Shown here: positions 8,700-57,989 of the stretch, one piece after another
Numbering within the stretch: the stretch's first letter is position 1
Layout of the letters: each line of letters opens with the position of its first letter
Source of the DNA: Salmo salar
Lineage: Eukaryota
Length of the DNA: 64,000 nt
Direction: 5' to 3'
Assembly: GCF_905237065.1 (NCBI RefSeq)
Contig: NC_059464.1
Coordinates: 3,047,803 to 3,111,802, forward strand
The notes under the pieces: model-generated
Told to the model about the DNA's origin: nothing
Database searches by the model: none
What the model saw: the letters and a program-made list of their open reading frames with translations, nothing else
Program-made: the position numbers and the translations under genes

Positions 8700-9922
8700 A
8701 GGCATAAGTTTCACTACATGACCAAAAGTATGTGGACACCTGCTCGGTGAACATCTCATTCCAAAATCATGGGCATTAATACAGAGTTGGTCCCCCCTTG
8801 CTGCCATAACAGCCACCACTCTTCTGGGAAGGCTTTCCACTAGATGTTGGAATATTGCTGCGGGGACTTGCTTCCATTCAGCCACAACAGCATTAGTGAG
8901 GTCTGGTACTGATGTTGGCGATTAGGCCTGGCTTGCAGTCGGCGTTCCAATTCATCCCAAAGGTGTTCGATGGGGTTGAGGTCAAGGCTCTGTGCAGGCC
9001 AGTCAAGTTCCTCCACACCAATCTCGAAAAACCATTTCTGTATTGACCTCGCTTTGTGCAAGCGGGCATTTTCATTCTGAAACAGGAAAGGGCCTTACCT
9101 AAACTGTTGCCACAAAGTTGGAAGCACAGAATCGTCTAGAATGTAATTGTATGCTATAGCATTAAGATTTCCCTTCACTCGAACTAAGGGGCCTAGCCCG
9201 AACCATGAAAAACATCCCCAGACAATTATTCCTCCTCCACCAACTTTACAGTTGGCACTATGCATTGAGGCAGAAGCGTTCTCCTGTCATCCGCCAAATC
9301 CAGATTCGTCCGTTGGACTTCCAAGCCAGATAGTGAAGCGTGATTCATCACTCCAGAGAACGCTTTCCACTGCTCCAGAGTCCAATGGCGGCTGCGAGCT
9401 TTACACCACTCCAGCCGACGCTTGGGTTTGAGCATAGTGTGCTTAGGCTTGTGTGCAGCTGCTCAGCCATGGAAACCCATTCTATGAAGCTCCCAACGAA
9501 CAATTATTGTACTGACGTTGCTTCCAGAGGCAGTTTGGAACTCGGTAGTGTGTGTTGCAATCGAGGACAGGCGATTTTTACACCCTTCAGCACTCGGTGG
9601 TCCAGTTCTGTGAGTTTGTGTGGCCTACCACTTCACGGCTGAGCCGTTGTTGCTCCTAGACGTTTCCACTTCACAATAACAGCCGTTACAGTTGACCGGG
9701 GCAGCTCTAGCAGGGCAGAAATTTGATGAATTGACTTGTACGAAAGGTGGCATCCTATGACGGTGCTACGTTGAAAGTCACTGAGCTCTTTCATAAGTCC
9801 ATTCTACTGCCAATGTTTGTCTAGGGAGATTGCATAGTTGTGTGCTTGATTTTATACACCTGTCAGCAACTGGTGTGGCTGAAATAGCTGAATCCACTTA
9901 TTTAAAGGGGTGTCCACATACT
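8700..9922 (-). mobile_element. Tc1-like transposon, the same family as 4284-5850 without the SINE; near full length and inverted
   Basis: Minus ORFs 8840-9061 and 8610-8885 cover the transposase C-terminus (WFFEIGVEELDWPAQSLDLNPIEHLWDELERRL...). Sequence through 9900 is collinear with the plus copy. The terminal repeats are CATGACCAAAAGTATGTGGACACC at the low end and GGTGTCCACATACTTTTGTATGTA at the high end. Confidence 0.85.
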
Positions 9923-35201: not shown

Positions 35202-36362
35202 TCATCCAATGACTGACACATGAGTCCTGATGTGTTTGGTCAGCTTAGCCGCCTCACTGAAAGCCTTGCCACACAAGCTGCAGGTGTGGGCCCAGCCTCC
35301 GGCAAGCCGCATTCCATTATGAACACGCTGGTGCTTCCTACACGTGTAGGCGTCCTTGAAGCTCATGCCGCAGACAGGGCAGCCATACAGACGCAGCTCC
35401 GTGTGAACACGCCGGTGGTTCCTCAGTGTGCCATCGTTGTTGAATCGCTTGCCACACAGTGCGCAAACGTACGGCTTCTCCCCTGTGTGAATGCGGAGGT
35501 GGATCTTGAGGCGTGACACGTGACTGAATATCTTACCACACTGAGGGCACGGGTGGGACCTCTGATCCCCCCTGTTGTTTGTTTGTTGTTGACCCCTGTT
35601 GTTTGTGGACCTGTTTATTTGTTGATGACACCTATTTGTTGATCTATTTGTTTGTTGTTGACGTCTGGTTTGACCCTGGTAGAACTGGGAGGTCAAGGGA
35701 CCTACGGTACTGGTGGTGGTGGCGTCCCCAAAGTCTTGTTCTGGCCCTGTTGTTACACAACCATCGCTGCCAATCTGACGGAAAAAGCCGTCTGAGATCA
35801 TGGCAGCACTAGCTGATACCAGGTCAGTGGGGACGCCCGAGGCAGTGGAGGCACCATACCGGCTGCTCTCTGCAACCACTGACTCCAGGTCAGCGCTCAG
35901 GTCTGAGACAGTGTAATTGGTTTCAACAGTGGCTGGTCCAGGGTCCGAACTGGTGTTTAGTTCACCATACCCCATCTGAGCAGAAACTGACCCCAAGTCA
36001 GTAGGGCTGGTATCACTAGGCTCTGTTTTGATGCCCTCAGAGTTATAGTGTAAAACCACTCTGTCCACGGGGCATGATGTGCTGCTGAAGGGATTTGCAG
36101 AGGGAAGGAGATGCTGGTCGTCTTCTTCGTCCAAGTCCCTTTTCACAGACGCTGAAGTCAATGGAGCTACTACTGGGGTGGTAGCCGATGTATCGGTTTG
36201 TTGTGAGGACAGGGTACATGGAGAGTTACACAGACTCTTCCACTCGGTGCAGTCTGTGGGTAGCTGGCTATGTGTGGCAGGCATCTCATCCTGGCTCATT
36301 TCCATGTGGTTCTGGGTGTGTGTAGACTCAGCGTCTGGACCCTGGTCGGCGCTCCACTGGTG
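35202..36362 (-). CDS. C2H2 zinc-finger gene 1, main exon: low-complexity linker plus four C2H2 fingers and the stop codon
   Basis: The 423-aa minus ORF ends ...[117 protein letters not shown]. The fingers are canonical C-X2-C-X12-H-X3-H units joined by HTGEKPY linkers. The upstream acceptor is unresolved. The strongest polypyrimidine-AG (TTTCTCTCTCTGTCTCTGGGCAG| near 36363) gives phase 0, whereas exon 1 ends in phase 1. Confidence 0.6.
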   Translation of the reverse strand, partial: [386 protein letters not shown]

Positions 36363-36758
36363 CTGCCCAGAGACAGAGAGAGAAACAGGCCTGGTCGAGA
36401 CTGGATGGACTGACGGACATACCGACAAATAGACAGAAAAGAGAAACAAATCAGATTGATTAAGTTTAAACAACTACAGAAGCAACGACCCAGACACGAG
36501 ATCTCAAGCATTCTGTAGGATGAGCTTGTTTGTGTAATGTGGTGATCTACAAGGCTTGAGACTGTCCAAATGCCCCATATCATAATCTTCTAGAAAAACC
36601 TGCATCGCCTCCCCTTTATATACACTCAGTGAAAGAATTGACAGGTGAAAACAGTATGGGCAGCAGAGGTCTTTTTTTTCTCAGATGAGTGCAAATAAAG
36701 GAGATGAGGAGAGGTCCGATTTTTCAGACAATAGACAAAGAGCCATTTGCATCATCAC

Positions 36759-36951
36759 CTGCTGAACACTCCGTTCCCGTGTCGAGTCCAACTTCTCGTA
36801 GCCTTCGTTTTAGGAGTTCATTCTCTCTCTTCGTCCGGGCAGTCTCCTCCTCGAATTCTGACACTGTCCCCCCAACAACCTCCAGTATCTCATCTACAGC
36901 CACCATTAACCGCTCGGTGAGGTAAGCATTCAAAAGCTGAAGTTTTGCCAT
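36759..36951 (-). CDS. C2H2 zinc-finger gene 1, first coding exon with a FiNZ-like N-terminal domain
   Basis: The exon encodes MAKLQLLNAYLTERLMVAVDEILEVVGGTVSEFEEETARTKRENELLKRRLREVGLDTGTECSA, followed by the donor CAG|GTGATG in phase 1. It is paralogous to the exon at 47457-47664. The MxKLQLLNxxLxERL...EYxEEixRxKxEN pattern matches my recollection of the fish-specific N-terminal domain of FiNZ zinc-finger proteins. Confidence 0.6.
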
Positions 36952-37569
36952 TTTTTTTTAAATTAGCCTCCCCAAATATTTGTTAAAATCCAAGGAAAGC
37001 CTCCTAGTAAAGACCCAAGCTAGACTGTTTTGTAAACACCTCGGGGAAAGCATTCACTTCCTGGTTCTTTAACTCTCCATGGTCATGTGATAAAAACGCT
37101 ACCGTAATTCATGAAAAAGGGGAGGCAAGCTTTTTAAAGGGATTGCGTACTTAAAATCTACTGTTAGATTTGCACGCTTATTACCGAGTATATTAATACA
37201 TATCTTGAGTGAAGGTGATGTGAGTCAAGCATCTGGCATCTTCCTTTTGGAAATAAACAACCTGAAAGATGGTTCAACGTCAATACAAAATAAATACAGA
37301 ATCAGACATGTGATTTTAATATTTAAATGATGTACTAATTTAATTCATTTCCACAAACACACACTCTTCAATCAAGCTGGAAACATCAGCTAAAATTACA
37401 TTATCCATTCATTTTCTACTGCACTGTTTTTATTAATCCCAATAAATATATTTAGGAAATATTCCTACGGCTAAAACACTTCAACATTTCACAATCCCTT
37501 CATGTCCTCCGGTGTTTGAAAAGGTGTAGCTGATTCAGCAGTAGCTGATTAGCTAGCGCATTAACCTCA

Positions 37570-37771
37570 TGTGATGAGCTGCCCTGCATCTGTCAGGTGT
37601 GTGTTCAGGTGTACCCGCAGGCCGCTGGCCACAGTGAAGCTCTTGGGACACTGGACACAGCGATAGGGTTTCTCCCCAGAGTGAGTCCGTTTGTGCTTTT
37701 TCATGGTGTCTCCGTCGCTGAAAGTCCTGTGGCAGTAGGGGCAGCTGTAGGGTCTCTCACCGGTGTGGATC
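37570..37771 (-). CDS. Terminal C2H2 zinc-finger exon: [67 protein letters not shown]. It probably belongs to gene 2
   Basis: The minus strand has the acceptor TTCTTATTATATATTATAG|GATCCACACCGG. The exon opens in the middle of a finger (R-IHTGERPY). Joining it in phase 2 to the donor at 46253 (..CTG AG|GTTGGA) gives [27 protein letters not shown], a complete C-X2-C-X12-H-X3-H finger with a canonical linker. The stop codon is at 37567-37569. Confidence 0.5.
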
Positions 37772-37800
37772 CTATAATATATAATAAGAATAAATAAAAT

Positions 37801-38225
37801 AAATATATCTACACTACCGCTCAAAAGTTTGGGATCACTTAGAAATGTCCTTGTTTTTGAAAGAAAAGCACATTTTTTGTCAATTAAATTAACATCAAAT
37901 TGGTTAGAAATACAGTGTAGACATTGTTAATGTTGTAAATGACTATTGTAGCTGGAAACAGCAGCTTATTTACATAGGCGTAGAGGCCCATTATCAGCAA
38001 CCATCACTCCTGTGTTCCAATGGCACGTTGTGTTAGCTAATCCAAGTTCATCATTTTAAAAGGCTAATTGATCATTAGAAAACCCTTTTGCAATTATGTT
38101 AGCACAGCTGAAAACTGTTGTTCTGATTAAAGAAGCAATAAAACTGGCCTTCTTTAGACTAGTTGAGTATCTGGAGCATCAGCATTTGTGGGTTTGATTA
38201 CAGGCTCAAAATGGCCAGAAACTCT
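37801..38225. mobile_element. Tc1-like terminal (ITR) fragment
   Basis: TACACTACCGCTCAAAAGTTTGGGATCACTTAGAAATGTCCTTGTTTTTGAAAG... is a Tc1-type ITR/sub-terminal region resembling the CAGTCAAAAGTTTGGACA subfamily. No transposase ORF follows it. It begins about 20 bp upstream of the putative acceptor of the exon at 37771. Confidence 0.5.
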
Positions 38226-40690
38226 CCTCAATGTTATCCTCACAAAGAATCTTGATAGGTATCAGTCTGGTGTTTTCTGTAATGACCTTAGTGATCGCTG
38301 TTTTACAGCCTGTGTTCGTAATGGCTGCTCAGTGAAACGACCTGTCCTGATTTGTCATAGACCCTTGCTAAGAAACTTTTATGAGAAAGCCTTCCTTCAT
38401 GAACTGGCCTCTGTCAAATGGTATAGAATCAGCTTGATCCCCTCTGTCGAAGACGCTTGGACATTCTTTTTTGATATTTTCTGTGATATTGTTAACACGC
38501 CCCCAAAGAAAATGAGAATTTAAAAAAGGTTCAGCCCCTGGTTCGACAGTGATCTTGCAGAGTTACTCCACCTCAAGAATTGCATTCAGCGAAAGGCTCA
38601 GCACATGCATACTCAGGCTGACTGGCTATCGTTCAGGCAAATGAGAAATAAGTGCACTCAGGCTATCCGGAAGGCCAAAGTTAGTTACTTTAAATGGTTA
38701 AAGACCTGGAGAACAAAAGCTCCTCCTCACAGCTGCCCATGTCCCTTAATGTTGATGATGTGGTTGTTACTGACAAGAAGCACATGGCTGAGCTCTTTAA
38801 TCACCACTTCATTAAGTCAGGATTCCTATTTGACTCGGCCATGCCTCCTTGCCCGTCCAACATTTCCTCAACTCCCACCCCTTCTAACGCGACTATCCCC
38901 GATGCTTCTGCCTCTTTTTCCCCTGTCCTGTTACAAAGTTTCTTCCTGCAGGCAGTCACTGAGTCTGAGGTGCTAAAGGAGCTCCTTAAACTTGACCCCC
39001 CAAAAATATCTGGGTCAGATGGTTAAGACGATTTCTTCTTTAAGGTTGCTGCCACTATCATCGCCAAGCCTGTCTCTCATTTCTGAAGAGGTTCCCATTG
39101 CTTGGAAGGCAGCCACGGTTCGTCCTTTATTTAAAGGGGAGATCAAGCTGATCCTAACTGTTATAGGCCTATTTCTATTTGCCCTGTTCATCAAAAGTGC
39201 TGGAAAAACTTGTCAATAATCAACTGACTGGCTTTCTTGATGTCTATAGTATTCTCTCAGGTATGCAATCAAATACCGACTAAGTAGTATTGGTGTCTCT
39301 GAGGGGTCTTTGGGTTGGTTTGCTAACTACCACTCTCAGAGAGTGCAGTGTATGAAGTCAGAAAACCTGTCTCACCCACTGCCTGTCACCAAGGGAGTAC
39401 TGCAAGGCTCGATCCTAGGCCCCACGCTCTTCTCAAATTTACATCAAGAACATAGCTCAGGCAGTAGAAAGCACTCACATCCATTTATATGCAGATGATA
39501 GTCTTATATACAGCTGGCCCCTCCCCGGATTTTATGTTAAATGCTTTACAAAGCTTTCTTAGTGTCCAACAAGCTTTCTCTACCCTTAACCTTGTTCTGA
39601 ACACCTCCAAAACAAAGGTCATGTGGTTTGGTAAGAAGAATGTCCCTCGTCCCACAAGTGTTATTGCTACCTCTAACGGTTTAGAGCTTGAGGTAGTCAC
39701 CTCATACAAGTACTCGGGAGTATGGCTAGACGGTGCACTGTCCTTCTCTCAGCACATATCAAAGCTGCAGGCTAAAGTTAAATCTAGACTTGGTTTCCTC
39801 TATCGTAATCAATCCTCTTTTCACCCCAGCTGCCAAACTAACCCTGATTCGGATGACCACCTACCCATGCTAGATTACGGAGACATAATTTATAGATTGG
39901 CAGGTAAGGGTGCTCTCGAGCAGCTAGATGTTCTTTACCATTCGGCCATCAGATTTGCCACCAATGCTCCTTATAGGACACATCACTGCACTCTATACTC
40001 CTGTAAACTGGTCATCTCTGTATACCTGTCGCAAGAGCCACTGGTTGATGCTTATTTATAAAACCCGCTTAGGCCTCACTCGCCCCTATCTGAGATATCT
40101 ACTGCAGCCCTCATCTTCCACATACAACACCTGTTCTGCCAGTCACATTCTGTTAAAGGTCCCCAAAGCACACACATCCCTGGGTCGCTCCTCTTTTCAG
40201 TTCGCTGCAGCTAGCGACTGGAACGAGCTGCAACAAACACTCAAACTGGACAGTTATCTCAATCTCTTAAGTCAAAGACTCAATCATGGACACTCTTACT
40301 GACAGTTGTGGCTGCTTTGTGTGATGTATTGTTGTCTCTCTCCTCTTGCCCTTTGTGCTGTTGTCTGTGCCCAATAATGTTTGTACCATGTTTTGTGCTG
40401 CTTCCATGTTGTTGTTTTGTTGTGTTGCCATGTGTTGCTGCCTTGCTATGTTGTTGTCTTAGGTCTCTCTTTATGTAGTGTTGTCTCTCTTGTTGTGATG
40501 TGTGTTTTGTCCTATAATTATTGTGTATATATATATATATATATATATTATTTTATTTTTTTATGTATCCCAGGCCCCATTCCCACAGGAGGCCTATTGG
40601 TAGACCGTCATTGTAAATAAGAATTTGTTCATAACTGACTTGCCTAGTTAAACAAAGGTTAAATAAAATTAAAATAAATAAAAACCCTGT
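38226..40690 (+). mobile_element. 5'-truncated LINE (salmonid RSg-1-like): ORF2 region after the endonuclease, RT domain, and a 3'UTR ending in the SmaI-type tail
   Basis: ORFs 38694-39026, 39310-39498 and 39489-40061 read ...LKLDPPKISGSDG, ...IGVSEGSLGWFANYHSQRVQCMKSENLSHPLPVTKGVLQGSILGPTLF, and ...YADD-type region...LNLVLNTSKTKVMWFGKK.... The 3' end at 40560-40690 is ...CATTGTAAATAAGAATTTGTTCATAACTGACTTGCCTAGTTAAACAAAGGTTAAATAAA, matching the tail of the SmaI SINEs at 45485 and 61578. Confidence 0.65.
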
Positions 40691-40699
40691 GGACGGCGC

Positions 40700-40956
40700 T
40701 TGATTGGAGACATTTTCCTCCTACAACAGGACAATGATCCAAAGCACCGCTCCAAGCTATGAAATAACTATTTAGGGAAGAAGCAGTCAGCTGGTATTCT
40801 GTCTATAATGGAGTGGCCAGCACAGTCACCGGATCTCAACCCTATTGAGCTGAGAATTGTCCATCAAGCCAATCCAACTTGTGGGAGGTGCTTCAGGAAG
40901 CATGGGGTGAAATCTCTTCAGATTACCTCAAAATTGACAACTAAACTCAGCAAAAA
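40700..40956 (+). mobile_element. Tc1-like transposase C-terminal fragment
   Basis: The plus frame reads ...[53 protein letters not shown]... Confidence 0.55.
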
Positions 40957-43842
40957 AAAGAAACGTCCTCTCACTGACAACTGTGTTTATTTTCAGCAAA
41001 CTTAACATGTGTAAATATTTGTATGAACATAAGATTGAACAACAGACAAACTGAACAAGTTCCACAGACATGTGCCTAACAGAAATGGAATAATGTGTCC
41101 CTAAACAAAGGAGGGGTCAAAATCAAAAGTAACAGTCAGTATCTGGTGTGGCCACCATCTGCATTAAGTACTGCAGTGCATCTCCTCCTCATGGACTGCA
41201 CCAGATTTGGCACCAGACTGCACCAGATTTGTTACTTCACTCTTCCACCAAGTTCCCGGACATTTCTGGGGGGAAATGGCCCTAGCCCTCACCCTCCGAT
41301 CCAACAGGTCCCAGACGTGCTCAATGGGATTGAGATCCAGGCTCTTCGCTGGCCATGGCAGAACACTGACATTCCTGTCTTGCAGGAAATCACTCACAGA
41401 ATGAGCAGTATGGCTGGTGGCATTGTCATGCTGGAGGGTCATGTCAGGATGAGCCTGCAGGAAGGGTACCACATGAGGGAGGAGGATGTCTTCCCTGTAA
41501 CGCACAGCGTTGAGATTGCCTGCAATGACAAGCTCAGTCCGATGATGCTGTGACACACCGCCCCAGACCACGACGGACCCTCCACCTCCAAATCGATCCC
41601 TCTCCAGAGAACAGGCCTCGGTGTAACACTCATTCCTTCAACGATAAATGCAAATCCGACCATCACCCCTGCTGAGACAAAACCGCGACTCGTCAGTGAA
41701 GAGCACTTTATGCCAGTCCTGTCTGGTCCAGCGACGGTGGGTTTGTGCCCATTGGTGACGTTGTTGCCGCTGATGTCTGATGAGGACCTGCCTTACAACA
41801 GGCTTACAAGCCCTCAGTCCAGCCTCTCTCAGCCTGTTGCGGACATTCTGAGCACTGATGAAGGGATTGTTCGTTCGTGGTGTAACTCGGGCAGTTGGTG
41901 TTGCCATCCTGCACCTGTCCCGCAGGTGTGATGTTCGGATGTACCGATCCTGTGCAGGTGTTGTTACACGTGGTCTGCCACTGCGAGGACAATCAGCTGT
42001 CCGTCCTGTCTCCCTGTAGTGCTGTCTTAGGAGTATCACAGTATGGACATTGCAATTTATTGCCCTGGCCACATCTGCAGTCCTCATGCCTCCTTGCAGC
42101 ATGCCTAACGCACGTTCACACAGATGAGCAGGGACCCTGGGCATCTTTCTTTTGGTGTTTTTTAAAGTCAGTAGAAAGGCCTATTTAGTGTCCTAAGTTT
42201 TCATAACTGTGACCCTAATTGCCTACCGTCTGTAAGCTGTTAGTGTCTTAACGACCATTCCACAGGTGCATGTTCATAAATTTTTTTTTATGGTTCATTG
42301 AACAAGCATGGGAAACAGTGTTTAACCTGTTGGGGATAGGGGGCAGTATTTACACGGCCGGATAAAAAACGTACCCGATTTAATCTGGTTACTACTCCTG
42401 CCCAGCAACTAGAATATGCATATAATTATTGGCTTTGGATAGATAGAAAACACCCTAAAGTTTCTAAAACTGTTTGAATGGTGTCTGTGAGTATAACAGA
42501 ACTCATATGGCAGGCAAAAACCTGAGAAGATTCCTTACAGGAAGTGGCCTGTCTGACAAGTTCTTGTTCATCTTGGCTCTTTTTATTGAAGACTGAGGAT
42601 CTTTGCTGTAACGTGACACTTCCTACGGCTCCCATAGGCTCTCAGAACCCGGGAAAAAGCTGAATGATATCGAGGCAGCCCCTGGCTGAAACACATTAGC
42701 GCGTTTGGATGGCCTGTCAGAGGACCATCAGACTGGGGCTCGTGCACGAGGGCACGAGATATTTTTATTTTCTCTCTCTTTGAACGAAAACCACCACTCC
42801 CGGTCGGAATATTATCGCTTTTTTATGAGAAAAATGGCATAAAAATTGATTTTAAACAGCGGTTGACATGCTTCGAAGTACGGTAATGGAATATTTAGAA
42901 ATGTTTTGTCACGAAATGCGTCGTGCTCGTCACCCTTCTTTACCATTCGGATAGTGTCTTGAACGCACGAACAAAACGCCGCTATTTGGATATAACTATG
43001 GATTATTTGGGACCAAACCAACATTTGTTATTGAAGTAGAAGTCCTGGGAGTGCATTCTGACGAAGAACAGCAAAGCTAATAACATTTTTCTTATAGTAA
43101 ATCTGACTTTGGTTAGTGCTAAACTTGCTGGGTGTCTAAATAGCTAGCCCTGTGATGCCAGGCCATCTACTCAGAATATTGCAAAAAGTGCTTTCACCGA
43201 AAAGCTATTTTAAAATCGGACATAGCGAGTGCATAGAGGAGTTCTGTATCTATAATTCTTAAAATAATTGTTATGTTTTTTGTGAACGTTTATCGTGAGT
43301 AATTTAGTAAATTCACCGGAAGTGTTCGGTGGGAATGCTAGTCACATGCTAATGTAAAAAGCTGGTTTTTGATATAAATATGAACTTGATTGAACAAAAC
43401 ATGCATGTATTGTATAACATAATGTCCTAGGGGTGTCATCTGATGAAGATCATCAAAGGTTAGTGCTGCATTTAGCTGTGGTTTGGGTTTATGTGACATT
43501 ATATGCTAGCTTGAAAAATGGGTGTCTGATTATTTCTGGCTGGGTACTCTGCTGACACAATCTAATGTTTTGCTTTCGTTGTAAAGCCTTTTTGAAATCG
43601 GACAGTGTGGTTAGATTAACAAGAGTCTTGTCTTTAAAATGGTGTAAAATAGTCATATGTTTGAGAAATTGAAGTAATAGCATTTCTAAGGTATTTGAAT
43701 ATCGCGCCACGGGATTACACTGGCTGTTGAGTAGGCGCAAGCGTCCCACCTAGCCCATAGAGGTTAAACCCTTTACAATGAAGATCTGTTAAGTTATTTG
43801 GATTTTTATGAATTATCTTTCTTTTTTTTGCTGAGTTTAGAA
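40957..43842 (-). mobile_element. Tc1-like transposon (transposase pseudogene, 5' end AAAAAAAAGAAACGTCCTCTCACTG...) split by a nested 1.44-kb TTAA element
   Basis: Minus ORFs 41164-41571 (...HDNATSHTAHSVSDFLQDRNVSVLPWPAKSLDLNPIEHVWDLLDRRVRARA...) and 41638-42144 (MPRVPAHLCERALGMLQGGMRTADVARAINCNVHTVILLRQHYRETGRTADCPRSGRPRVTTPAQDRYIRTSHLRDR...[17 protein letters not shown]). The element runs to ...GGGAAACAGTGTTTAA at 42325 and resumes with ACCCTTTACAATGAAGATCTGTTAAGTTATTTGGATTTTTATGAATTATCTTTCTTTTTTTTTGCTGAGTTTAG over 43768-43842. Confidence 0.75.
42326..43763. mobile_element. Non-autonomous TTAA-target element (piggyBac-like MITE), copy 1, inserted in a Tc1 element
   Basis: The termini CCTGTTGGGGATAGGGGGCAG... 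and ...CCCACCTAGCCCATAGAGG form imperfect TIRs. TTAA lies on both flanks (42322-42325 and 43764-43767). Removing the element and one TTAA restores the uninterrupted Tc1 sequence GTGTTTAAACCCTTTACAATG. I found no transposase-like ORF. Confidence 0.65.
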
Positions 43843-44049
43843 TGCCAAAGGTCTGCAAGGCTGTAATTGCTGCAAATGGAGGATTCTTTGACGAAAGCGA
43901 AATTTGAAGGACACCATTTTTATTTCAATGAAAAATCATTATTTATAACCTTGTCAACATCTTGACTATATTTCCTATTCATTTTGCAACTCATTTCATG
44001 TATATTTTCAAGTGACCCCAAACTTTTCAATGGTAGTGTATATAATAAT

Positions 44050-44075
44050 AATAATAATAATATATAAATGGAGTG
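44050..44075. repeat. (TAA)n microsatellite
   Basis: Read directly. Confidence 0.9.
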
Positions 44076-44196
44076 GAGAGACTTTAACCCAACACCTAGC
44101 AACCTTGTCAAGAGGTTTGGATCTTTGGGCGTAACAGCGAAGGTGTTGGATTGACAGTCACTGGTCAGGACTACCGCCTAAATTCGCTACAATATA

Positions 44197-46220
44197 CAGT
44201 GAGCTACAAAACTATTAGGACAGTGACACATTTTTTGTTGTTTTGGCTCTGTACTCCAGCACTTGGGATTTGAAACGATACCATGACTGAGGTTAAAGTG
44301 ACTGTCAGCTTTTAATTAGAGGGTATTTTCATCCATATCGGGTGAACCGTTAAGAAATTACAGCACTTTTTGTACATAGTCCACCTATTTTAGGGGACCA
44401 AAAGTATTGGGACAAATTCACTTATATGTGTGTTAAAGTAGTCAAAAGTTTAGTATTTGGTCCAATAGCCCTAGCACGGAATGATTATAGCAAGTTTGTG
44501 ACTCTACAAACTTGTTGGATGCATTTTAATGTAAATAAGAATATAATATGTTTCTAAACACTTCTACATTAATGTGGATGTTACCATGATTACAGATAGT
44601 CCTGAATTAATCGTGAATAATAAAGTTAGACGCACAAATATCATACCCCCAAGACATGCTAACCTCTCACCATCACAATAACAGGGGAGGTTAGCATTTT
44701 GGGGGGGTATGATATTTGTGCGTCTAACTTTCTCATTATTCAAGATTCATTCAGGACTATCTGTAATCATGGTAGCATCCACATTAATGTAGAAGTGTTT
44801 AGAAACATATTATATTCTTATTTATATTAAAAGTGACTCCAAAACGACAATACATTACCATTCATTTCTAGTCGGCACAAAATAATCTGAAACACAACCA
44901 AAACAAACAGCAAATGCATCCAACAACAACTTTCTCACTCATCATCATTCACGATTCATTCAGGACTATTCGTAATCATGGTAGCATCCACATTAATTAT
45001 ACTCCTTTTGCCATGGGACAAAGACAAAAATGTTTCCAGTTTTACAGCAAATTTTCTTAAATTCTACCCCTTTTGCCATGTGATGGACATAATCGTTTTC
45101 AGTTTTAAAGTAAATTTCCTGCAATTCTACACAATTTCCCATGACTTATGCAATGTTAATGATATCTGAGTGAGAGTGACTAACAAAATCAATGGGGGCC
45201 ACCTGGAGTTCAGGGCCCCTGGGGATGTGCCCTGCGTGCACGGTCGGTAGTTGGCCATGATTACAAGTTTAGATAGCTTGCCAGACTAACATACCATTCT
45301 AAAAAGAGTTATCTGACATGGCTAATTGAGTGACTGTCAGTGATGACAAAACAAGAGAAAAATTGCTGATGCATAACCAAATGTTGAACTTGCACCTTGT
45401 GTATTCTACTATTCTAACTCTTAATTAGTAAGTTGAGACCACAACTGCGGTGCTTATGCCTGGAGCCGGCCCTGGTGATAGGGGTAAACCAGGTAGCGTA
45501 GCCTAGTGGTTAGAGCGTTGGATCGAATCCCCGAGCTGACAAGGTACATATCTGTCGTTCTGCCCCTGAACAAGGCAGTTAACCCACTGTCCCTAGGCCG
45601 TCATTGAAAATAAGAATTTGTTCTTAACTGACTTGCCTAGTTAAATAAAGGTAAAATAAAATAAAAAAATGGAGGACAAGTTGTCATAGGCCAACAACCT
45701 ATATAGCCCATACTGCCATACCTGCCCAATACCCAGGCCCCAGCCACAGAGTCAGTATTTCGCTTTTATGTGAAGATAGATGGCTGTTTAGAAACATATT
45801 CTATTCTTGTTGACCAAAAAATGTATTGACTCCAAAATGACACAATGCATTATTTACCATTCAATTCTATTGGGCACAAAATAATCTGAAACAAAAATGA
45901 AAACAGCAAATGCATCCAACAAGCTTGATGTAATCATTGCGTGCAAGGAATATGGGACCAAATACTAAACTTTTGACTACTTTAATACACATAAGTGAAT
46001 TTGTCCCAATACTTTTGGTCCCTTAAAATGGGGACAATGTACAAAAAGTGCAGTAATTTCTAAATAGTTCACCCAATATGAATGACAATACACTTAAATT
46101 TAAGCTGTCAGTCTGCAGTTGAATGTAATAGTCATTGTATTACTTCAAATCCAAAGTGCTGCAGTACAGAGCCAAAAATAACAAAATATGTCACTGTCCC
46201 AATACTTTTGGAGCTCACTG
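44197..46220. mobile_element. Foldback-like element with inverted arms of about 350-440 bp and CAGTG termini (CAGTGAGCTACAAAACTATTAGGACAGTGACA ... TGTCACTGTCCCAATACTTTTGGAGCTCACTG)
   Basis: Arm A at 44197-44560 is the reverse complement of 45770-46220. A roughly 290-bp near-perfect palindrome at 44537-44830 is centred near 44680. Partial arm copies lie at 44830-45000, and a SmaI SINE is nested at 45485-45668. It has no coding capacity. Confidence 0.6.
45485..45668 (+). mobile_element. SmaI-type tRNA-derived SINE
   Basis: GGTAGCGTAGCCTAGTGGTTAGAGCGTTGGATCGAATCCCCGAGCTGACAAGGTACATATCTGTCGTTCTGCCCCTGAACAAGGCAGTTAACCCACTGTCCCTAGGCCGTCATTGAAAATAAGAATTTGTTCTTAACTGACTTGCCTAGTTAAATAAAGGTAAAATAAA(A)n. 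Confidence 0.8.
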
Positions 46221-46252
46221 CATAATAATACAATATAATAATGTATTCCAAC

Positions 46253-47130
46253 CTCAGGTGCCGTCTCAGGTTGCCTCTCTGGGTAAAGCTTTTGGAGCAC
46301 CAGGAGCAGCGGTGGGGCCTCTCCCCCGTGTGGATACGGTGGTGGCGCCGCAGGTCAGCCGACTGGGCAAAGGACTTACAGCACCAGTCACAGGCGTAGG
46401 GCTTCTTATACTGAAGGTGGAGGTGGAGGCTGGCCGCCTGGCTGAAACTCTCCCCACATCGGGTGCAGCGGTGTGGGCGCCCCTCCTGGTGGTCGGTGGG
46501 GGTGAAGTTGTTACTCTCGTTGTATGGCAACACCTGGTCCTTGGACCCAGGCTCTGTTTCATATGTTTGCTGGTCATGTACGGGTGTGTTATGGAGCTCT
46601 GAGATGTCCATATCTGGAAGGTCTTTGAAGCCAGCGTCGCCTGAGAGTTCATGGTTGTGGGGTAGTAGTGTTATAGGAAGACCTGTGTAGCCTGAACTGG
46701 ATTGAGGTTCATGGTTGGTGAGGTTCAATGTGACGTCGCATTCCTTGGGTTCCATTTTGATCCGTCCCTGGATTGGGTCGATGGGAGAGGACCTCTTTCT
46801 CTCTGTCCTAAGGACTGGCACTTCAGCGTTGGCTGCTCCAGTTGTTGTGGCACAGTGGGCATTGGAGGAGAACGGAGATGGTGCCAAGGACGAGGTGTTT
46901 CCAAAACCCTTGGCTTCTGGGTCTGAGTTGTGCTCTGTCTTTGGGATTGCCTGTCCTGGACTGGACTTCTCTTCTGCTCGGACCGTTTCAGTGTGTCCCT
47001 GGTTTGGTCCTGTGAGACCCCCATCCTTACCCAACGCTACCTGGCTCTGTGTCTGTAGCCCTCGTCTGTTGACCTGGCTCTGCTGCTGGGGCTCTGGGTC
47101 CTGTTCCTGTCTGGAGCTCCACTCTTGCTC
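46253..47130 (-). CDS. C2H2 zinc-finger gene 2, main exon: linker plus fingers, ending at a splice donor that falls inside a finger
   Basis: The minus ORF 46132-47034 and its upstream extension read ...HRCTRCGESFSQAASLHLHLQYKKPYACDWCCKSFAQSADLRRHHRIHTGERPHRCSWCSKSFTQRGNLRRHLR. The last finger lacks its second histidine and is followed by AG|GTTGGA in phase 2. The remainder of the ORF (LEYIIILYYY...) is intron read-through. The acceptor is unresolved and the 5' coordinate is approximate. The ORF track starts this ORF at a TTG codon. Confidence 0.55.
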
Positions 47131-47456
47131 ACAAAGCTGCTGTTGCCCAGAGAGAGAAAGGCTGGTGGAACCTGCTTAGAAAGAGGGTGCAAAGACAAAG
47201 TGCTGTCACTAAATAAGTAAGAAATTGAGTAAATATGTATGACATTGTAATTAATCATGTACTACTATTAGTTGTTAATGTTTGCTGCGAGGGATATTCG
47301 GAATTCGGGCACTTCTCACGAGCCAACGTAACGTTGCTGTCAATCGTCAACAGACAGACGTCACCCAATGTAGTTAGTTCGTTGACAGTTTGCCAACTCA
47401 TTTCTGCATGATCATTAAGTTAGCATAATCCAACAAATCCGACAAAATGTTCTTAC

Positions 47457-47664
47457 GCCAGTCTGTCTCCGCCAAGAGTAAGATGTCCCGGAGCTGTCGC
47501 CGAAGGCTTTCATTTTCTCTCTTCGCGCTTTCATTCTCTCTCTTCGTCCTAGCCGTCTCTTCTCGGTACTCGGCCACTGTGTCCCCGACTACGTCCAGAA
47601 TCTCCCGCACCACTACCGTTAAACGTTCTGTCAGGTAAGCATTCAACAGCTGCAGTTTGGTCAT
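47457..47664 (-). CDS. C2H2 zinc-finger gene 2, first coding exon with a FiNZ-like N-terminal domain
   Basis: The exon encodes MTKLQLLNAYLTERLTVVVREILDVVGDTVAEYREETARTKRENESAKRENESLRRQLRDILLLAETDW, followed by the donor TGGC|GTAAGA in phase 1. It shares about 60% amino-acid identity with the gene-1 exon over the first 45 residues. Confidence 0.6.
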
Positions 47665-50410: not shown

Positions 50411-51886
50411 CTCTCCTTCTCAAACCCCATTGGAGGAGAAGGTCAGAGGGGCGGGACCTTTTGCTTTCTCATCCAATTGGTTTTGAGAAGGAGACAAGGA
50501 GAGAAGACGTTGAGGAGTAGGCAATTGAGATAATCCCATAGTCTCTCTCACTTCCTCTCTGTTTCTTTCTCTTATTGTTGGAAAAGGGGTATAAAATATA
50601 TTACTGCATCTTGTACAGAATAAATCTTATGGTTAAAGGTTGAGTTAGAATGTTTGCAGGTGAGTTATTAAATGTTTAGCTGTAGAGTTGAGAACTATTG
50701 AATAATATGATTTTGGGCTGAGTTTAAGGTTTTTGACTGTCGTGACTGTTTAGTTCCCCCCCACCAAGTAGGAAACTGTGAAATAAGAAAGATGCTAAAT
50801 GTTTATTGTCTTTTCATTGCATTTGTAAGCAATATTGCACAAGCATGCTAATGTAAGGATCGTGATCAGTAGAAAATGTCTGAAAAAAATGTTGGGTAGT
50901 AAAAAACGATACCACACCAGGAGTCATATTACTGATAGTGGATTTCCGGATCTATGGCGCCCTCTCAGAAGTGCATTTCACTTGCACAGCAATGTGTCCT
51001 GGGTGACGAAGAGAATTGACACTCTGTATAGAAAGGTTGTAGATATGATGGTCATCAGAGCTGAACGGGTCACGCCACTGCAGGTCTGCCCCTTTCCATA
51101 TCATATTGGTGGTGTTGTTGTTGCTGTGATCATGGCGTATGTTAATGTTATGTGGGTTTTACATATCTACACTACTGCCAACATTATTGGCCCCTGTTGG
51201 ATAAATCAAGTGTTTTGAATTGAATGGAATCGAATTGAATTGACCCCCTTCATCCACGACAAGCTGCTGTACAAATCAAACACACTTAAAATAAGAAATA
51301 TCTGACTATCTGGAAGGCCACTATCTGCAATTAATTTAATACTGATTCTGCTAGTAGGTTAAAGGGCTACATACTGCATCATCAGCCTGAACTGAAAGAT
51401 GCTTTGAATCAGCCATTTCAGAAACATTTTGAAATAGTTATTTAGCTGGAGTAATTTTGATTTGGACCATTTAACATTTGACAATGTACATTGTGAAGTT
51501 AGCACGCTAGCCTCTGGAGCACAGTGTTGTTGACGTGGGATGGAAGCCCGGGTCTGCTGTACAGGGATGGTCTGTGTTACATTCAAGGGGGGAGGATTTC
51601 GATAAAGCGTTGATATTCAATGGAAAAAAATACCATATTACAGAATATGGAGTGTAGCAGTCAGTGTCATTCCCTCCCTCACTTTAAGTCCTCTCCCGAG
51701 AGATCTCTTCTCCCTTCCTTTCCCCTGTCCTCTGCAGCACACTGCATTCTTTCTCCCAGTCTGCTAAAACCGGCAAGTCAGAGTGTATCTTCTCACAGAG
51801 TTAAGTCTGTAGACACACCAATCCCTTCTTATTGCTGCTCGGATCGTTTGCCCTACATACACACACCCTCCTTTGAACTCTACTAA

Positions 51887-51888
<2 letters not shown>

Positions 51889-51936
<48 letters not shown>

Positions 51937-51975
51937 TGTGTGTCTGTGTGTGTGTGTGTGTCTGTGTGTCTGTGT

Positions 51976-52009
<34 letters not shown>

Positions 52010-52068
52010 CTGTGTGTGTTTGTGTGTCTGTGTGTGTGTCTGTGTGTCTGTGTGTGTGTGTGTGTTTT
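51889..52068. repeat. Compound (GT)n/(GTCT)n microsatellite
   Basis: Read directly. The ORFs across 51764-52492 are artefacts of it. Confidence 0.95.
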
Positions 52069-52099
52069 GTGGCTCTTGGTTCAGAACATCAAAAGCACA

Positions 52100-52700
52100 G
52101 CACACACAGTACACTATTTGTCGTTTTGTTTCTCTCGTTCTCTCACTCTACAGCTCTCCTTTTTACCTTTGATTCAGTCCCCTCCCTCTCCCCCTTTCCT
52201 CTCTGCATTCAACTGCATTATGATAGTCTGGAAGATTTTTTCTTCTTTCTCTCCCTTGCTCGATATGTCTACCTTTATCTTTACCTCTATCTGTCTCTCT
52301 AGTTCCTTCCTTTTCTGCTTTTGTGTCGTTCTACGTGTTTTTTTATCTCCCTCTTTCTCTCTCTCGCCATCTGTACTCCCACTCTGCTCTCTGCCTCCCC
52401 ACCCCCACCACTCCTTACAAACAGAACAAGTCTATCTTTCTCATTATCTGTCTGATAATGCCATGTTTTTTCCACTTGTCAGCGATTTGTAGCTAACCCA
52501 TTTATTTTTGTTTACTTCCATCACCTTTTCTTCCTTTCTACTGCCATCTCCAGTAGCCATCCTCGACCTACCTGTCGTGCTCCCCCCTCTACCCCTCTCT
52601 CCCTTCCTTTTTCTCTCTCCTCCTTACACCGCTCTTTCTCTATCCACCCTATCCCTCGTTCTCTGAAGCCCCCTCTCTTTCACCCTATCATTTTTTCTCT
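52100..52700. repeat. CT-rich low-complexity region
   Basis: Read directly. Confidence 0.6.
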
Positions 52701-56420: not shown

Positions 56421-57989
56421 TACAGTGGGGGAAAAAAGTATTTGATCCCCTGCTGATTTTGTACGTTTGCCCACTTACAAAGAAATGATCAATCTATAAT
56501 TTTAATGGTAGGTTTATTTGTACAGTGAGAGACAGAATAACAACAAAAAAATCCAGAAAAACACATGTCAAAAATGTTTTAAAATGATTTCCATTTTGAT
56601 GAGGGAAATAAGTATTTGACCCCTCTGCAAAACACGACTTAGTACTTGGTGGCAAAACCCTTGTTGGCAATCACAGAGATCAGACGTTTCTTGTAGTTGG
56701 CCACCAGCTTTGCACACATCTCAGGAGGGATTTTGTCCCACTCCTTTTGCAGATCTTCTCCAAATCATTAAGGTTTCGAGGCTGACGTTTGGCAACTCAA
56801 ACCTTGAGCTCCCTCCACAGATTTTCTATGGGATTAAGGTCTGGAGACTGGCTAGGCCACTCCAGGACCTTAATGTGCTTTTTCTTGAGCCACTCCTTTG
56901 TTGCCTTGGCCGTATGTTTTGGGTCATTGTCATGCTGGAATACCAATCCACGACCCATTTTCAATGCCCTGGCTGAGGGAAGGAGGTTCTCACGCAAGAT
57001 TTGACAGTACATGGCCCCGTCCAATGATGCGGTGAAGTTGTCCTGTCCCCTTAGCAGAAAAACACCCCCAAAGCATAATGTTTCCACCTCCATGTTTGAC
57101 GGTGGAGATGGTGTTCTTGGGGTCATAGGCAGCATTCCTCCTCCTCCAAACACGGCGAGTTGAGTTGATGCCAAAGAGCTCCATTTTGGTCTCATCTGAC
57201 CACAACACTTTCACCCAGTTGTCCTCTGAATTATTCAGATGTTCATTGGCAAACTTCAGATTTGAGCAGGGGGACCTTGTGGGCGCTGCAGGATTTCAGT
57301 CCTTCACGGCGTAGTGTGTTACCAATTGTTTTCTTGGTGACTATGGTCCCAGCTGCCTCAAGATCCTCCCGTGTAGTTCTGGGCTTATTCCTCACCGTTC
57401 TCATGATCATTGCAACCCCACGAGGTGAGATCTTGCATGGGGCCCCAGGCCGAGGGATATTGACAGTTCTTTTGTGTTTCTTCCATTTGCGAATAATCGC
57501 ACCAACTGTTGTCACCTTCTCACCAAGCTGCTTGGCGATGGTCTTGTAGCCCATTCCAGCTTTGTGTAGGTCTACAGTCTTGTCCCTGACATCCTTGGAG
57601 AGCTCTTTGGTCTTGGCCATGGTGGAGAGTTTGGAATCTGATTGATTGATTGCTTCTGTGGACAGGTGTCTTTTTTACAGGTAACAAGCTGCGGTTAGGA
57701 GCACTCCCTTTAAGAGTGTGCTCCTAATCTCAGCTCGTTACCTGTATAAAAGACACCTGGGAGCCAGAAATCTTTCTGATTGAGAGGGGGTCAAATACTT
57801 ATTTCCCTCATTAAAATGCAAATCAATTTATAACATTTTTGACATGCGTTTTTCTTGATATTTTTGTTGTTATTCTATCTCTCACTGTTCAAATAAACCT
57901 ACCATTAAAATTATAGACTGATCCTTTCTTTATCAGTGGGCAAACGTACAAAATCAGCAGGGGATCAAATACTTTCCCCCCCCACTGTA
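56421..57989 (-). mobile_element. Tc1-like transposon (1.57 kb) with both ITRs (TACAGTGGGGGAAAAAAGTATTTGATCCCCTGCTGATTTTGTACGTTTGCCCAC ... CAGTGGGCAAACGTACAAAATCAGCAGGGGATCAAATACTTTCCCCCCCACTGTA), nested in the L2 LINE
   Basis: Minus ORFs 57243-57620 ([120 protein letters not shown]), 56990-57214 and 56797-57195 (...[24 protein letters not shown]...[47 protein letters not shown]) form a Sleeping-Beauty-like transposase broken by a few frameshifts. Confidence 0.85.

What the first reader, a model, noticed from the sequence alone, without database searches (positions are those of the whole stretch)
44197..46220. Foldback-like element with long inverted arms and a 290-bp near-perfect palindrome
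Arms of about 360 to 440 bp (CAGTGAGCTACAAAAC.../...GTTTTGGAGCTCACTG) are inverted copies of each other. Between them is a roughly 290-bp palindrome (44537-44830, centre near 44680) whose two halves are nearly identical reverse complements, plus further partial arm copies and a nested SmaI SINE. Perfect palindromes of this length are cruciform- and hairpin-prone. In other systems they are hotspots for replication stalling, deletion and rearrangement. The element sits inside the putative last intron of ZNF gene 2.
Basis: seen in the sequence. Interest (0 to 1): 0.5.

Follow-up and report, generated by a model that had tools for sequence, protein, structure and literature searches.

The report
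Old Tc1-like transposon with growing palindrome
This is an ancient, dead, non-coding Tc1-type "cut-and-paste" transposon sitting in an intron of an Atlantic salmon zinc-finger gene; its central hairpin-forming palindrome has been deleted, flipped or, in the Salmo lineage, enlarged by 209 bp. It is an ordinary kind of element with an unusually well-documented history.

Summary
The structure is real. Outer inverted arms are 44197-44560 and 45785-46220 (about 83% identical). An inner palindrome spans about 44507-44926, centred near 44678. It is 96% matched in its outer 98 nt, 88% near the centre and 87.7% overall, so it is not "near-perfect".

It is not a Foldback-family element. It is TA-flanked, ends in CAGTG, and carries the 17-mer CCAAAAGTATTGGGACA twice per arm, about 193 bp apart. 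That is the IR/DR layout of salmonid Tc1-like transposons. It has no transposase.

The window is Salmo salar. The element lies about 30 bp inside the last intron of a ZNF gene that is still spliced correctly. The same insertion is present in both duplicated loci of Coregonus, Salvelinus and Oncorhynchus. Pike has the empty site, so the insertion is very old.

A 227-bp central palindrome is ancestral. Its centre was deleted independently three times. A short stretch is inverted in Oncorhynchus. In Salmo it was extended by a 209-bp inverted copy of the neighbouring arm, also present in the independent S. trutta assembly. S. salar then lost 79 bp from one arm.

The nested SINE is not SmaI.

Verdict: ordinary element, new member of a known kind, low to moderate interest.

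The parts
44195..44196 (.). TA target-site duplication on the left. The right partner at 46221-46222 reads CA in this window and TA in Coregonus and lake trout.
   Evidence: The empty site in pike reads ...ATTGTGTA|TTGTAGAGCAGAATTT.
44197..46220 (.). The whole non-autonomous Tc1-like element. It is 2024 bp here and about 1.55-1.7 kb in the least altered copies.
   Evidence: The termini are CAGTGAGCT(A/C)CAAAA.../...TTTTGGAGCTCACTG. The same insertion sits at the same site in L001, L002, L003, L005, L006, L007, L008, L011 and L012.
44197..44560 (+). Arm B, the left arm in window coordinates, running from the terminus inward to ...TGTTTCTAAACA.
   Evidence: 83.5% identity to arm A.
45785..46220 (-). 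Arm A, the right arm in window coordinates.
44206..44222 (+). Outer direct repeat of arm B, decayed with 3 mismatches to CCAAAAGTATTGGGACA.
44398..44414 (+). Inner direct repeat of arm B, an exact 17-mer 192 bp in from the outer one.
46002..46018 (-). Inner direct repeat of arm A, exact.
46195..46211 (-). Outer direct repeat of arm A, exact.
44507..44926 (.). Central palindrome as it stands in S. salar. The centre is about 44677/44678 and the loop about 44667-44686.
   Evidence: The S. trutta equivalent is a 501-bp palindrome at L007 1775-2275.
44718..44926 (.). Salmo-specific 209-bp inverted copy of arm B that lengthens the right half of the palindrome. Its placement is ambiguous by about 15 bp because of a flanking repeat.
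   Evidence: It is absent from the O. kisutch, O. mykiss and S. namaycush orthologs and present in S. trutta. Diagnostic bases show it was copied from arm B. In S. trutta it is 97.4% identical to arm B.
44927..44997 (.). Displaced original flank of the ancestral palindrome (ATTAATGTGGATGCTACC...GAGAAAGTT on the minus strand), now an orphan third copy.
44526..44527 (.). Junction of a 79-bp deletion found only in this window's arm B. The segment is intact in S. trutta and all other species.
44998..45784 (.). Unique internal segment 'X', about 620 bp without the SINE. It includes a 63-bp unit repeated 2.1 times at 44995-45130.
   Evidence: It is present in all orthologs and ohnologs and shows no similarity to Tc1 transposases.
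45493..45667 (+). Nested tRNA-derived SINE. The insertion is specific to Salmo. It is not SmaI.
   Evidence: It is absent at this point in L006, L008 and L003 and present in L007. Related copies lie at 61573-61710 and 40601-40674. Family distribution is from PMC9223172.
46253..47169 (-). ZNF exon 2. The 5' splice site CTGAG|GTTGGA lies 30 nt from the element's TA.
37567..37771 (-). Last coding exon of the same ZNF gene. The intron spans 37772-46252.

Best explanation
The feature is a fossil copy of a multi-copy, non-autonomous Tc1/mariner transposon of the IR/DR type.

Insertion (shown). It inserted at a TA dinucleotide about 30 bp inside the last intron of a C2H2 zinc-finger gene. This happened after the pike lineage split off and before the two salmonid duplicate loci diverged.

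Mobility (inferred). It was moved by cut-and-paste. A Tc1-like transposase supplied in trans would have bound the two direct repeats in each roughly 225-bp terminal inverted repeat and cut at the CAGTG ends. The copy encodes nothing and is now immobile and, most likely, neutral. The host gene still splices across it.

Architecture (the layout is shown; its origin is inferred). Its arm homology extends well beyond the IR/DR, to about 440 bp. It resumes around a central palindrome after a roughly 620-bp unique segment. The founding element was therefore probably almost entirely palindromic.

Behaviour of the palindrome (shown). The central palindrome, 227 bp in the least altered copy, has behaved as an unstable secondary-structure-forming sequence:
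- Its centre was deleted independently in both Coregonus loci and in the second salmonine duplicate.
- A stretch of about 20 bp is inverted in place in Oncorhynchus.
- In the Salmo stem lineage a 209-bp tract was copied in inverted orientation from arm B into the opposite side, lengthening each palindrome arm from about 105 to about 225 bp.
- S. salar later lost 79 bp from one arm.

Mechanism of the extension (inferred). It is best explained by two template switches of a replicating strand: out to the opposite arm at a short AAA(G/C)TT..GTTGG similarity, and back within the arm homology. Fold-back priming after a break would give an equivalent result.
For: Structure:
- TA flanks and CAGTG termini.
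- The exact 17-mer CCAAAAGTATTGGGACA occurs at 44398, 46002 and 46195, with a decayed copy at 44206, 192-193 bp apart within each arm.
- A bona fide Tc1-like element at 56423-57987 in the same window has the same layout.
- This matches the salmon Tc1-like subclass with about 200-bp ITRs, CAGT ends, a TA target and two direct repeats per ITR (PMC2198921), and the IR/DR definition in PMC5224488.
- The region has no ORF longer than 63 aa and no similarity to transposases.
- The family is multi-copy. Thirteen other translated copies in ENA/JGI contigs, 56-82% identical, several reading through a CAGTGG(G/C)TCCAAAAGTATTGGGAC terminus, plus a Coregonus gene model (P0268) that matches only a 24% stretch.

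Age of the insertion:
- Pike has the empty site.
- The element is at the identical site on two chromosomes each of C. clupeaformis, S. namaycush and O. kisutch, and in O. mykiss and S. trutta.
- The two arms differ by K2P 0.10-0.21.

The window is S. salar and the intron is spliced.

History of the palindrome:
- Five-species alignment, centre alignment, motif counts and O. mykiss sequences from two assemblies.
- The new copy carries the arm-B state ACAGATAG where the old flank has ACGAATAG. It then carries the left-arm GAGTGAG tail.
- In S. trutta the new copy is 97.4% identical to arm B (K2P 0.027). This lies between the salar-trutta distance (0.016) and the Salmo-Salvelinus distance (0.053).
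- Palindrome identity falls from 98% at the outside to 83% at the centre in S. trutta. This is the pattern expected if the outer part is young.
- All four independent deletions of 79 bp or more fall in the palindrome region.
Against: - No autonomous partner with matching ends was found, so mobilisation by a Tc1-like transposase is inferred from structure only.
- The family consensus could not be built, because no fish genome collection was searchable and the DNA of the extra copies could not be fetched. Whether segment X and the central palindrome belong to the family, or arose at this locus before the genome duplication, is therefore open.
- The outer junction of the 209-bp copy has an extra GTT that the simple microhomology model does not predict.
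- One diagnostic site inside the tract is mosaic.
- The number of indel events per bp is not higher in the palindrome than elsewhere: 5 events in 363 bp against 15 in 1361 bp. Only their size and position single it out.
- The 79-bp deletion rests on a single S. salar sequence.
Confidence: 0.85

Rival explanations
1. It belongs to a true Foldback-type family (Drosophila FB-like or Galileo-like) from a different superfamily, whose long arms are themselves the transposition substrate.
For: It has long inverted arms of 360-440 bp and a strongly folding centre.
Against: The target duplication is the 2-bp TA, not 7-9 bp. The arms contain no tandem sub-repeats. The termini and the paired direct repeats are of Tc1 IR/DR type.
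Confidence: 0.03
2. The unit is two separate truncated copies of a Tc1-like element that landed head to head, or one copy nested in another, rather than one element.
For: The two arms are only about 83% alike and are separated by unrelated sequence. Partial arm copies lie between them.
Against: One pair of TA flanks brackets the whole unit, and the pike empty site joins exactly those flanks. The same complete unit is found in both duplicate loci of three species. The internal partial copies are shown to be local and later: they are specific to Salmo and 97% identical to arm B.
Confidence: 0.05
3. The palindrome, or its 209-bp extension, is an assembly artefact such as a collapsed or chimeric fold-back read.
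For: Palindromes are a known source of chimeric reads. Only one S. salar sequence was available.
Against: The independent S. trutta assembly has the same extension, with its own substitutions and a fuller second arm. The ancestral core is present in S. namaycush, O. kisutch and two O. mykiss assemblies built from different data.
Confidence: 0.02
4. The hairpin is a functional RNA gene or regulatory structure, such as an intronic miRNA or siRNA precursor or a splicing modulator, kept by selection.
For: It is transcribed within the intron about 30 nt from a splice donor and would form a stem of roughly 200 bp. Palindromic mariner MITEs have given rise to miRNAs in humans (PMC5224488), and template switching can create hairpins (PMC8794818).
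Against: No Rfam family reaches threshold. The best match is mir-3660 at 26 bits against a gathering score of 70. The hairpin centre was deleted in three lineages and rearranged in another without loss of the gene model, so it is not conserved.
Confidence: 0.04

Closest known systems
Salmonid Tc1-like transposons with long ITRs (DTSsa1/4/9/10, SSTN1, Tss, SALT1; de Boer et al. 2007, PMC2198921) and the IR/DR subgroup typified by Sleeping Beauty (PMC5224488)
   Same: It has a TA target and CAGT(G) ends. Two direct repeats per inverted repeat lie about 190 bp apart, giving an IR/DR of about 225 bp. Overall length is about 1.55-1.7 kb. The AAGTATT-containing repeat core sits at the same positions as in the Tc1-like element at 56423-57987.
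   Different: It has no transposase gene or remnant. Arm homology continues to about 440 bp and resumes around a central palindrome, so most of the element is inverted repeat. Its terminal sequence was not matched to any named family. A text search for the repeat core (CAAAAGTATTGGGACA) found nothing.
Tc7 of C. elegans, a non-autonomous 'hitch-hiker' on Tc1 with about 345-bp inverted repeats around a unique core (recalled from memory, Rezsohazy et al. 1997; not checked here)
   Same: It is a non-coding element of near full size with very long inverted arms, in which only the outer part resembles the autonomous element's ends. It has a TA target.
   Different: It is in a different phylum with unrelated sequence. 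Tc7 has simple ends rather than an IR/DR layout and has no reported central palindrome.
Palindromic Tc1/mariner MITEs: zebrafish Angel (from memory, Izsvak et al. 1999) and human MADE1 (PMC5224488)
   Same: These are TA-flanked, non-coding and almost wholly inverted repeat, and can fold into a hairpin.
   Different: They are 80-300 bp with simple ends. This element is five to twenty times longer and of IR/DR type, a class reported to disfavour miniature derivatives (PMC5224488).
Drosophila Foldback (FB) and Galileo-type elements (from memory)
   Same: They have long inverted arms and a propensity to form secondary structure and to rearrange.
   Different: In those families the arms are built of tandem sub-repeats or the target duplications are 7-9 bp. 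Here there are no sub-repeats and the duplication is TA.
Template-switch mutations at inverted repeats (Loytynoja & Goldman 2017, PMC5453318; PMC8794818; PMC8604942) and centre-break deletion of palindromes (from memory, Cunningham et al. 2003)
   Same: A two-switch copy from the opposite arm lengthens the inverted repeat. An in-place inversion lies next to the repeat, as in Oncorhynchus. Deletions remove the centre of symmetry.
   Different: The copied tract is 209 bp. This seems long next to the events that PMC5453318 itself titles 'short template switch events', though tract lengths there were not checked. The mechanism is inferred from the sequence outcome only.

Membership tests
Tc1/mariner superfamily, IR/DR subgroup (non-autonomous member) | TA target-site duplication | tested here: met
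   TA is on both sides in lake trout. Coregonus L003 and the Salmo and Oncorhynchus copies each keep TA on one side, with the other decayed to TT or TG. The window has TA at 44195-44196 and CA at 46221-46222. The pike empty site contains the TA.
Tc1/mariner superfamily, IR/DR subgroup (non-autonomous member) | Terminal inverted repeats ending in CAGT | tested here: met
   CAGTGAGCTCCAAAAGTATTGGGACAGTGAC is found at the arm A end in all ten loci, with a more decayed inverted partner at the arm B end that was not matched in the two O. mykiss loci. The criterion is from PMC2198921.
Tc1/mariner superfamily, IR/DR subgroup (non-autonomous member) | Two transposase-binding direct repeats per inverted repeat, at the outer and inner ends of an IR of about 200-230 bp | tested here: met
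   The 17-mer occurs at 46195/46002 and at 44206 (decayed)/44398, spaced 192-193 bp. Only sequence repetition was tested, not binding. The criterion is from PMC5224488 and PMC2198921.
Tc1/mariner superfamily, IR/DR subgroup (non-autonomous member) | DDE transposase gene (required of an autonomous member) | tested here: not met
   There is no ORF over 63 aa. tblastx against two Tc1-like elements in the window finds only the SINE tail. The element is therefore filed as non-autonomous.
Tc1/mariner superfamily, IR/DR subgroup (non-autonomous member) | Multiple dispersed copies and presence/absence polymorphism between lineages | tested here: met
   Thirteen other translated copies in ENA/JGI contigs, plus a partial match in a Coregonus gene model. 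The site is empty in pike and filled in all salmonids examined.
Tc1/mariner superfamily, IR/DR subgroup (non-autonomous member) | An autonomous partner with matching ends, or mobilisation by its transposase | not testable with these tools
   No fish genome collection or repeat library was searchable. Viral and metagenome DNA scans gave nothing useful.
MITE (miniature inverted-repeat element) | Small size (tens to a few hundred bp) | tested here: not met
   The least altered copies are 1546 bp (L003), 1684 bp (L006) and 1700 bp (L008).
Foldback (FB-like) elements | Arms composed of tandem sub-repeats | tested here: not met
   TRF finds no array in either arm. The only array is a 63-bp unit repeated 2.1 times in the unique segment.
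Foldback (FB-like) elements | Target-site duplication of about 9 bp (recalled from memory) | tested here: not met
   The duplication is TA only.
SmaI SINE (for the nested SINE) | Distribution restricted to chum and pink salmon | tested here: not met
   The window is S. salar, and the same SINE insertion is shared with S. trutta. The distribution is stated in PMC9223172. Diagnostic bases against HpaI were not compared.
Known RNA family (miRNA or other hairpin RNA) | Covariance-model match at the gathering threshold, and conservation of the stem | tested here: not met
   The best Rfam hit is 26.3 bits against a gathering score of 70. The stem centre is deleted in three lineages.

The most novel reading that the evidence does not exclude
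The Salmo-lineage event would be a fully reconstructed natural case of a vertebrate germline palindrome growing by about 209 bp through a two-step template switch or fold-back copy. The ancestral state, donor, recipient and date are all recoverable from living species. It sits inside a family that may show IR/DR-type Tc1 elements can amplify as almost wholly palindromic, non-coding derivatives of full size. If the extended stem of about 225 bp in the intron is also processed into small RNAs or edited, it would be a lineage-specific hairpin locus born by that switch.
Probability: 0.25. Interest if true: 0.4.

Novelty: new member of a known kind. Interest (0 to 1): 0.25.

Why it matters
For genome annotation, this is a repeat fossil. 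It needs masking, not a new category.

Its modest value is as a worked example. One old palindromic insertion, preserved in duplicate in every salmonid examined, lets each rearrangement be placed on the tree:
- three independent centre deletions;
- one in-place inversion;
- one 209-bp arm extension;
- one 79-bp arm deletion.

The series shows the well-known instability of palindromes acting over tens of millions of years in a vertebrate germline. It also shows that palindromes can lengthen as well as decay.

It is also a caution for assemblers and variant callers, since the site differs in length between the two Salmo species.

Tried and rejected
- DNA scans for other copies found nothing usable. 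The inner-repeat 24-mer and the terminal 20-mer gave no hit in viral contigs. In metagenome contigs they gave nothing or one GC-rich chance hit, L009.
- A text search of papers for the repeat-core 16-mer CAAAAGTATTGGGACA found nothing.
- Rfam and tRNA scans gave no meaningful match.
- A tblastx test of whether the arms or segment X derive from a transposase gene found no similarity.
- I first took lake trout L001 to be the ortholog. That was wrong. L001 and O. kisutch L005 share a 3-kb insertion the window lacks and are 87-90% identical to it, so they are the duplicate (ohnolog) locus. The true orthologs were reached through the neighbouring gene.
A second S. salar assembly could therefore not be examined.
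- A simple count of indels per bp as a 'hotspot' test showed no excess in the palindrome.
- The DNA of the 13 extra family copies could not be fetched because the look-ups were exhausted. The family consensus remains unbuilt.
Full report
**1. What is in the sequence**

Self-comparison of 44100-46300 confirms two nested symmetries.
- Outer arms: 44193-44499 pairs in reverse complement with 45919-46224 at 82.7% over 312 columns, E=1e-83.
- Inner palindrome: 44515-44842 is its own reverse complement at 87.7% over 333 columns, E=2e-112.
- The repeat finder resolves the inner palindrome into 98-nt arms at 96% (44524-44621 / 44735-44832) and 51-nt arms at 88% (44616-44666 / 44687-44737) around a 20-nt loop.
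- 44796-44926 is a direct 79% copy of 45785-45922, and 44942-44997 is a third copy of the palindrome flank.
- As single-stranded DNA, 44500-44930 folds at -145 kcal/mol against -32 +/- 3.7 for shuffles, z = -30.5.
- No second copy of the element exists in the 64-kb window.

'Near-perfect' holds only for the outer third of the palindrome.

**2. What kind of element it is**

- The unit starts TA|CAGTGAGCTACAAAAC... and ends ...TTTTGGAGCTCACTG|CA.
- In less decayed copies from other species both flanks read TA.
- The 17-mer CCAAAAGTATTGGGACA occurs exactly at 46195-46211 and 46002-46018 in one arm. In the other arm it occurs exactly at 44398-44414, with a 3-mismatch copy at 44206-44222. The spacing within each arm is 192-193 bp.
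- This is the IR/DR layout: inverted repeats of about 225 bp, each with an outer and an inner direct repeat.
- The layout matches the description of the long-ITR subclass of salmon Tc1-like transposons, which have a TA target, CAGT ends, ITRs of about 200 bp and two direct repeats per ITR (PMC2198921). It also matches Sleeping Beauty-type elements (PMC5224488).
- A complete-looking Tc1-like element at 56423-57987 in the same window shows the same geometry, with a related AAGTATT core.
- The element has no ORF over 63 aa and no translated similarity to Tc1 transposases.
- Its arms contain no tandem sub-repeats.

It is therefore a non-autonomous IR/DR-type Tc1-like element, not a Foldback-family member.

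The family has other copies. A chance 108-aa reading frame through one arm finds 13 other translated copies (56-82% identity) in ENA and JGI metagenome contigs, plus a Coregonus gene model (P0268) that matches only a 24% stretch. Several of the translated copies read through a CAGTGG(G/C)TCCAAAAGTATTGGGAC terminus.

**3. Where it sits and in which organism**

- On the minus strand, a C2H2 zinc-finger gene has exon 2 ending at 46253 (CTGAG|GTTGGA). Its last exon starts at 37771 after ...tattatag.
- The spliced translation is identical to Salmo salar XP_014024112.1. The neighbouring gene's translation is identical to S. salar XP_014024111.1.
- The window is therefore Atlantic salmon.
- The element begins 30 nt into the 8.5-kb last intron, which is removed in the reference gene model.

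**4. Age of the insertion**

Loci encoding the homologous proteins were fetched from other fish. The same element lies at the same TA site in the following:
- both Coregonus clupeaformis chromosomes (L002, L003);
- both S. namaycush chromosomes (L001, L008);
- both O. kisutch chromosomes (L005, L006);
- O. mykiss in two assemblies (L011, L012);
- S. trutta (L007, L010).

Northern pike has the intron but an empty site...GGCATACATTATTGTGTA|TTGTAGAGCAGAATTT.

- L001 and L005 share a 3-kb insertion that the window lacks and are 87-90% identical to it. They represent the duplicate locus.
- L006, L007, L008 and L011 are orthologs of the window. At least L006 and L007 share the LINE and Tc1 block at 37808-44047.

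The insertion therefore post-dates the pike split and pre-dates divergence of the two salmonid duplicates. I take those duplicates to stem from the salmonid whole-genome duplication; that step is inference from established knowledge. Arm-to-arm divergence of K2P 0.10-0.21 agrees with great age.

**5. Anatomy of the ancestral element**

In gene orientation all copies read as follows:
- arm A, from the terminus to ...TGTTTCTAAACA;
- a unique segment X of about 620 bp;
- a flank ATTAATGTGGATGCTACC...GAGAAAGTTAGACGCAC...;
- an 18-20 nt loop;
- the mirror image of that flank, running without a break into arm B and its terminus.

Arm homology thus reaches about 440 bp and resumes after X. This suggests a founder that was nearly all palindrome, with X either an early insertion or a family feature. 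That point is inferred and could not be tested without more copies.

The cleanest central palindrome is in the S. namaycush ortholog, at about 227 bp.

**6. History of the central palindrome**

- Coregonus L002 keeps only 22-nt arms around a 5-nt loop.
- Coregonus L003 keeps a few bases, with different breakpoints from L002.
- The duplicate locus (L001, L005) lacks about 105 bp of the centre.
- These are three independent deletions, each removing the centre of symmetry.
- In Oncorhynchus the right arm carries TGAATGAATTGTGAATA in the orientation of the left arm, which is an in-place inversion of about 20 bp. O. kisutch adds 31 bp. Both O. mykiss assemblies agree.
- In S. salar and S. trutta only, 209 bp are inserted after ...GAGAAAGTT. 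This tract is window 44718-44926, with placement ambiguous by about 15 bp.

The inserted tract is an inverted copy of arm B, not a tandem copy of the old flank:
- It has ACAGATAG, as arm B does in all species, where the old flank has ACGAATAG.
- It includes the roughly 130-bp arm segment, at 98% identity to S. trutta arm B but only 79% to arm A.
- It ends with the left-arm-specific GAGTGAG tail, so the old flank's tail is present twice.

A nascent strand that copied the left flank, switched to the opposite arm, and switched back within the arm homology reproduces this exactly.
- The outward switch would lie at ...AAACTTGTTGG on the donor and ...AAAGTT on the recipient.
- An extra GTT at the junction remains unexplained.
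- This is the two-switch template-switch model known at smaller scale (PMC5453318).
- Fold-back priming after a break is an equivalent alternative.

The dating is consistent:
- In S. trutta the new copy differs from arm B by K2P 0.027.
- The salar-trutta distance is 0.016 and the Salmo-Salvelinus distance is 0.053.
- Palindrome identity falls from 98% in the outer, young part to 83% in the inner, old part.

S. trutta has a 501-bp palindrome at L007 1775-2275. The window lacks 79 bp of arm B at 44526|44527, with an AAA microhomology at the junction.

**7. Is it a rearrangement hotspot?**

Indel events of 5 bp or more are not more frequent per bp in the palindrome region: 5 in 363 bp against 15 in 1361 bp.

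However, all four independent deletions of 79 bp or more in the element lie there. These are the deletions in L002, L003, the duplicate locus, and the window. None is seen in the other 79% of the element in any of the copies compared. If positions were uniform this would happen about 0.2% of the time, a rough figure. The inversion and the extension are also confined to this region.

**8. Artefact check**

The extended palindrome is present in the independent S. trutta assembly, at 98.4% overall identity and with its own differences. The core is present in five further assemblies. Misassembly is excluded for the palindrome. The 79-bp deletion rests on this single S. salar sequence.

**9. The nested SINE**

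Window positions about 45493-45667 are a tRNA-derived salmonid SINE with the usual tail. The SINE is present at this point only in the two Salmo species. SmaI is confined to chum and pink salmon, while HpaI is widespread (PMC9223172). 'SmaI' is therefore wrong, and an HpaI-type element is more likely. I did not test this base by base.

**10. Function**

Nothing suggests a present function.
- There is no Rfam match at threshold.
- The hairpin is not conserved.
- The host gene model is intact in species with and without the hairpin.

A role as a small-RNA or editing substrate cannot be excluded without expression data.

**11. Verdict**

This is an ordinary, very old, non-autonomous Tc1-like IR/DR element. 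Its internal palindrome provides a tidy, datable series of structure-driven rearrangements, including a 209-bp enlargement specific to Salmo. It is a new member of a known kind, of low to moderate interest.

Noticed in passing
window 56423-57987: A complete-looking Tc1-like element flanked by TA, with CAGTGGGGGAAAAAAGTATTTGATCCCC... at both ends and an inner direct repeat about 185 bp in. It served as a structural comparator.
   Followed up: partly
window 37808-44047: A block of inserted repeats in the same intron: LINE-like reverse-transcriptase ORFs at 38188-40302 and a Tc1 transposase remnant at 41164-42144. It is shared with the S. trutta and O. kisutch orthologs. It is absent from the duplicate locus and, judging by their much shorter introns, apparently from Coregonus too.
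   Followed up: partly
window 5620-5849 and 8712-9000: An inverted pair, 72% identical, of Tc1 transposase 3' ends (...RCPHTFGHVV). They carry a CCAAAAGTATGTGGACA motif that resembles the direct-repeat core of the element studied.
   Followed up: partly
L006 12484-12553: A 70-nt fragment 77% similar to the element's terminal region (...TATTTGAACAGTGAAGCTAC...CTCCAGCATTTTGGATTTGAG). It is probably the end of a related Tc1-like family.
   Followed up: no
L011 versus L012 (O. mykiss): The same gene spans 9169 bp in the newer assembly (GCA_013265735.3) but 6047 bp in the older one (GCA_900005705.1). About 3.1 kb of intron is missing or collapsed in the older assembly, although the palindrome region is identical in both.
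   Followed up: partly
P0261 (ENA contig, 902 bp): A translated copy of the element's arm is fused to a bacterial YbaB-like tail (PF02575). This looks like a chimeric metagenome contig joining fish and bacterial DNA.
   Followed up: no
window 35202-36951 and 37567-47664: Two tandem ZNF genes share a similar N-terminal exon (M[AT]KLQLLNAYLTERL...). The pair is conserved in both duplicate loci of salmonids and in pike.
   Followed up: partly
window 51764-52492: A long (TG/CA)n microsatellite produces spurious ORFs on both strands.
   Followed up: no
L001 6004-9244 and L005 4519-7429: An insertion of about 3 kb inside arm B of the element, in the duplicate locus. It is shared by lake trout and coho, which marks those two loci as orthologs of each other.
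   Followed up: partly
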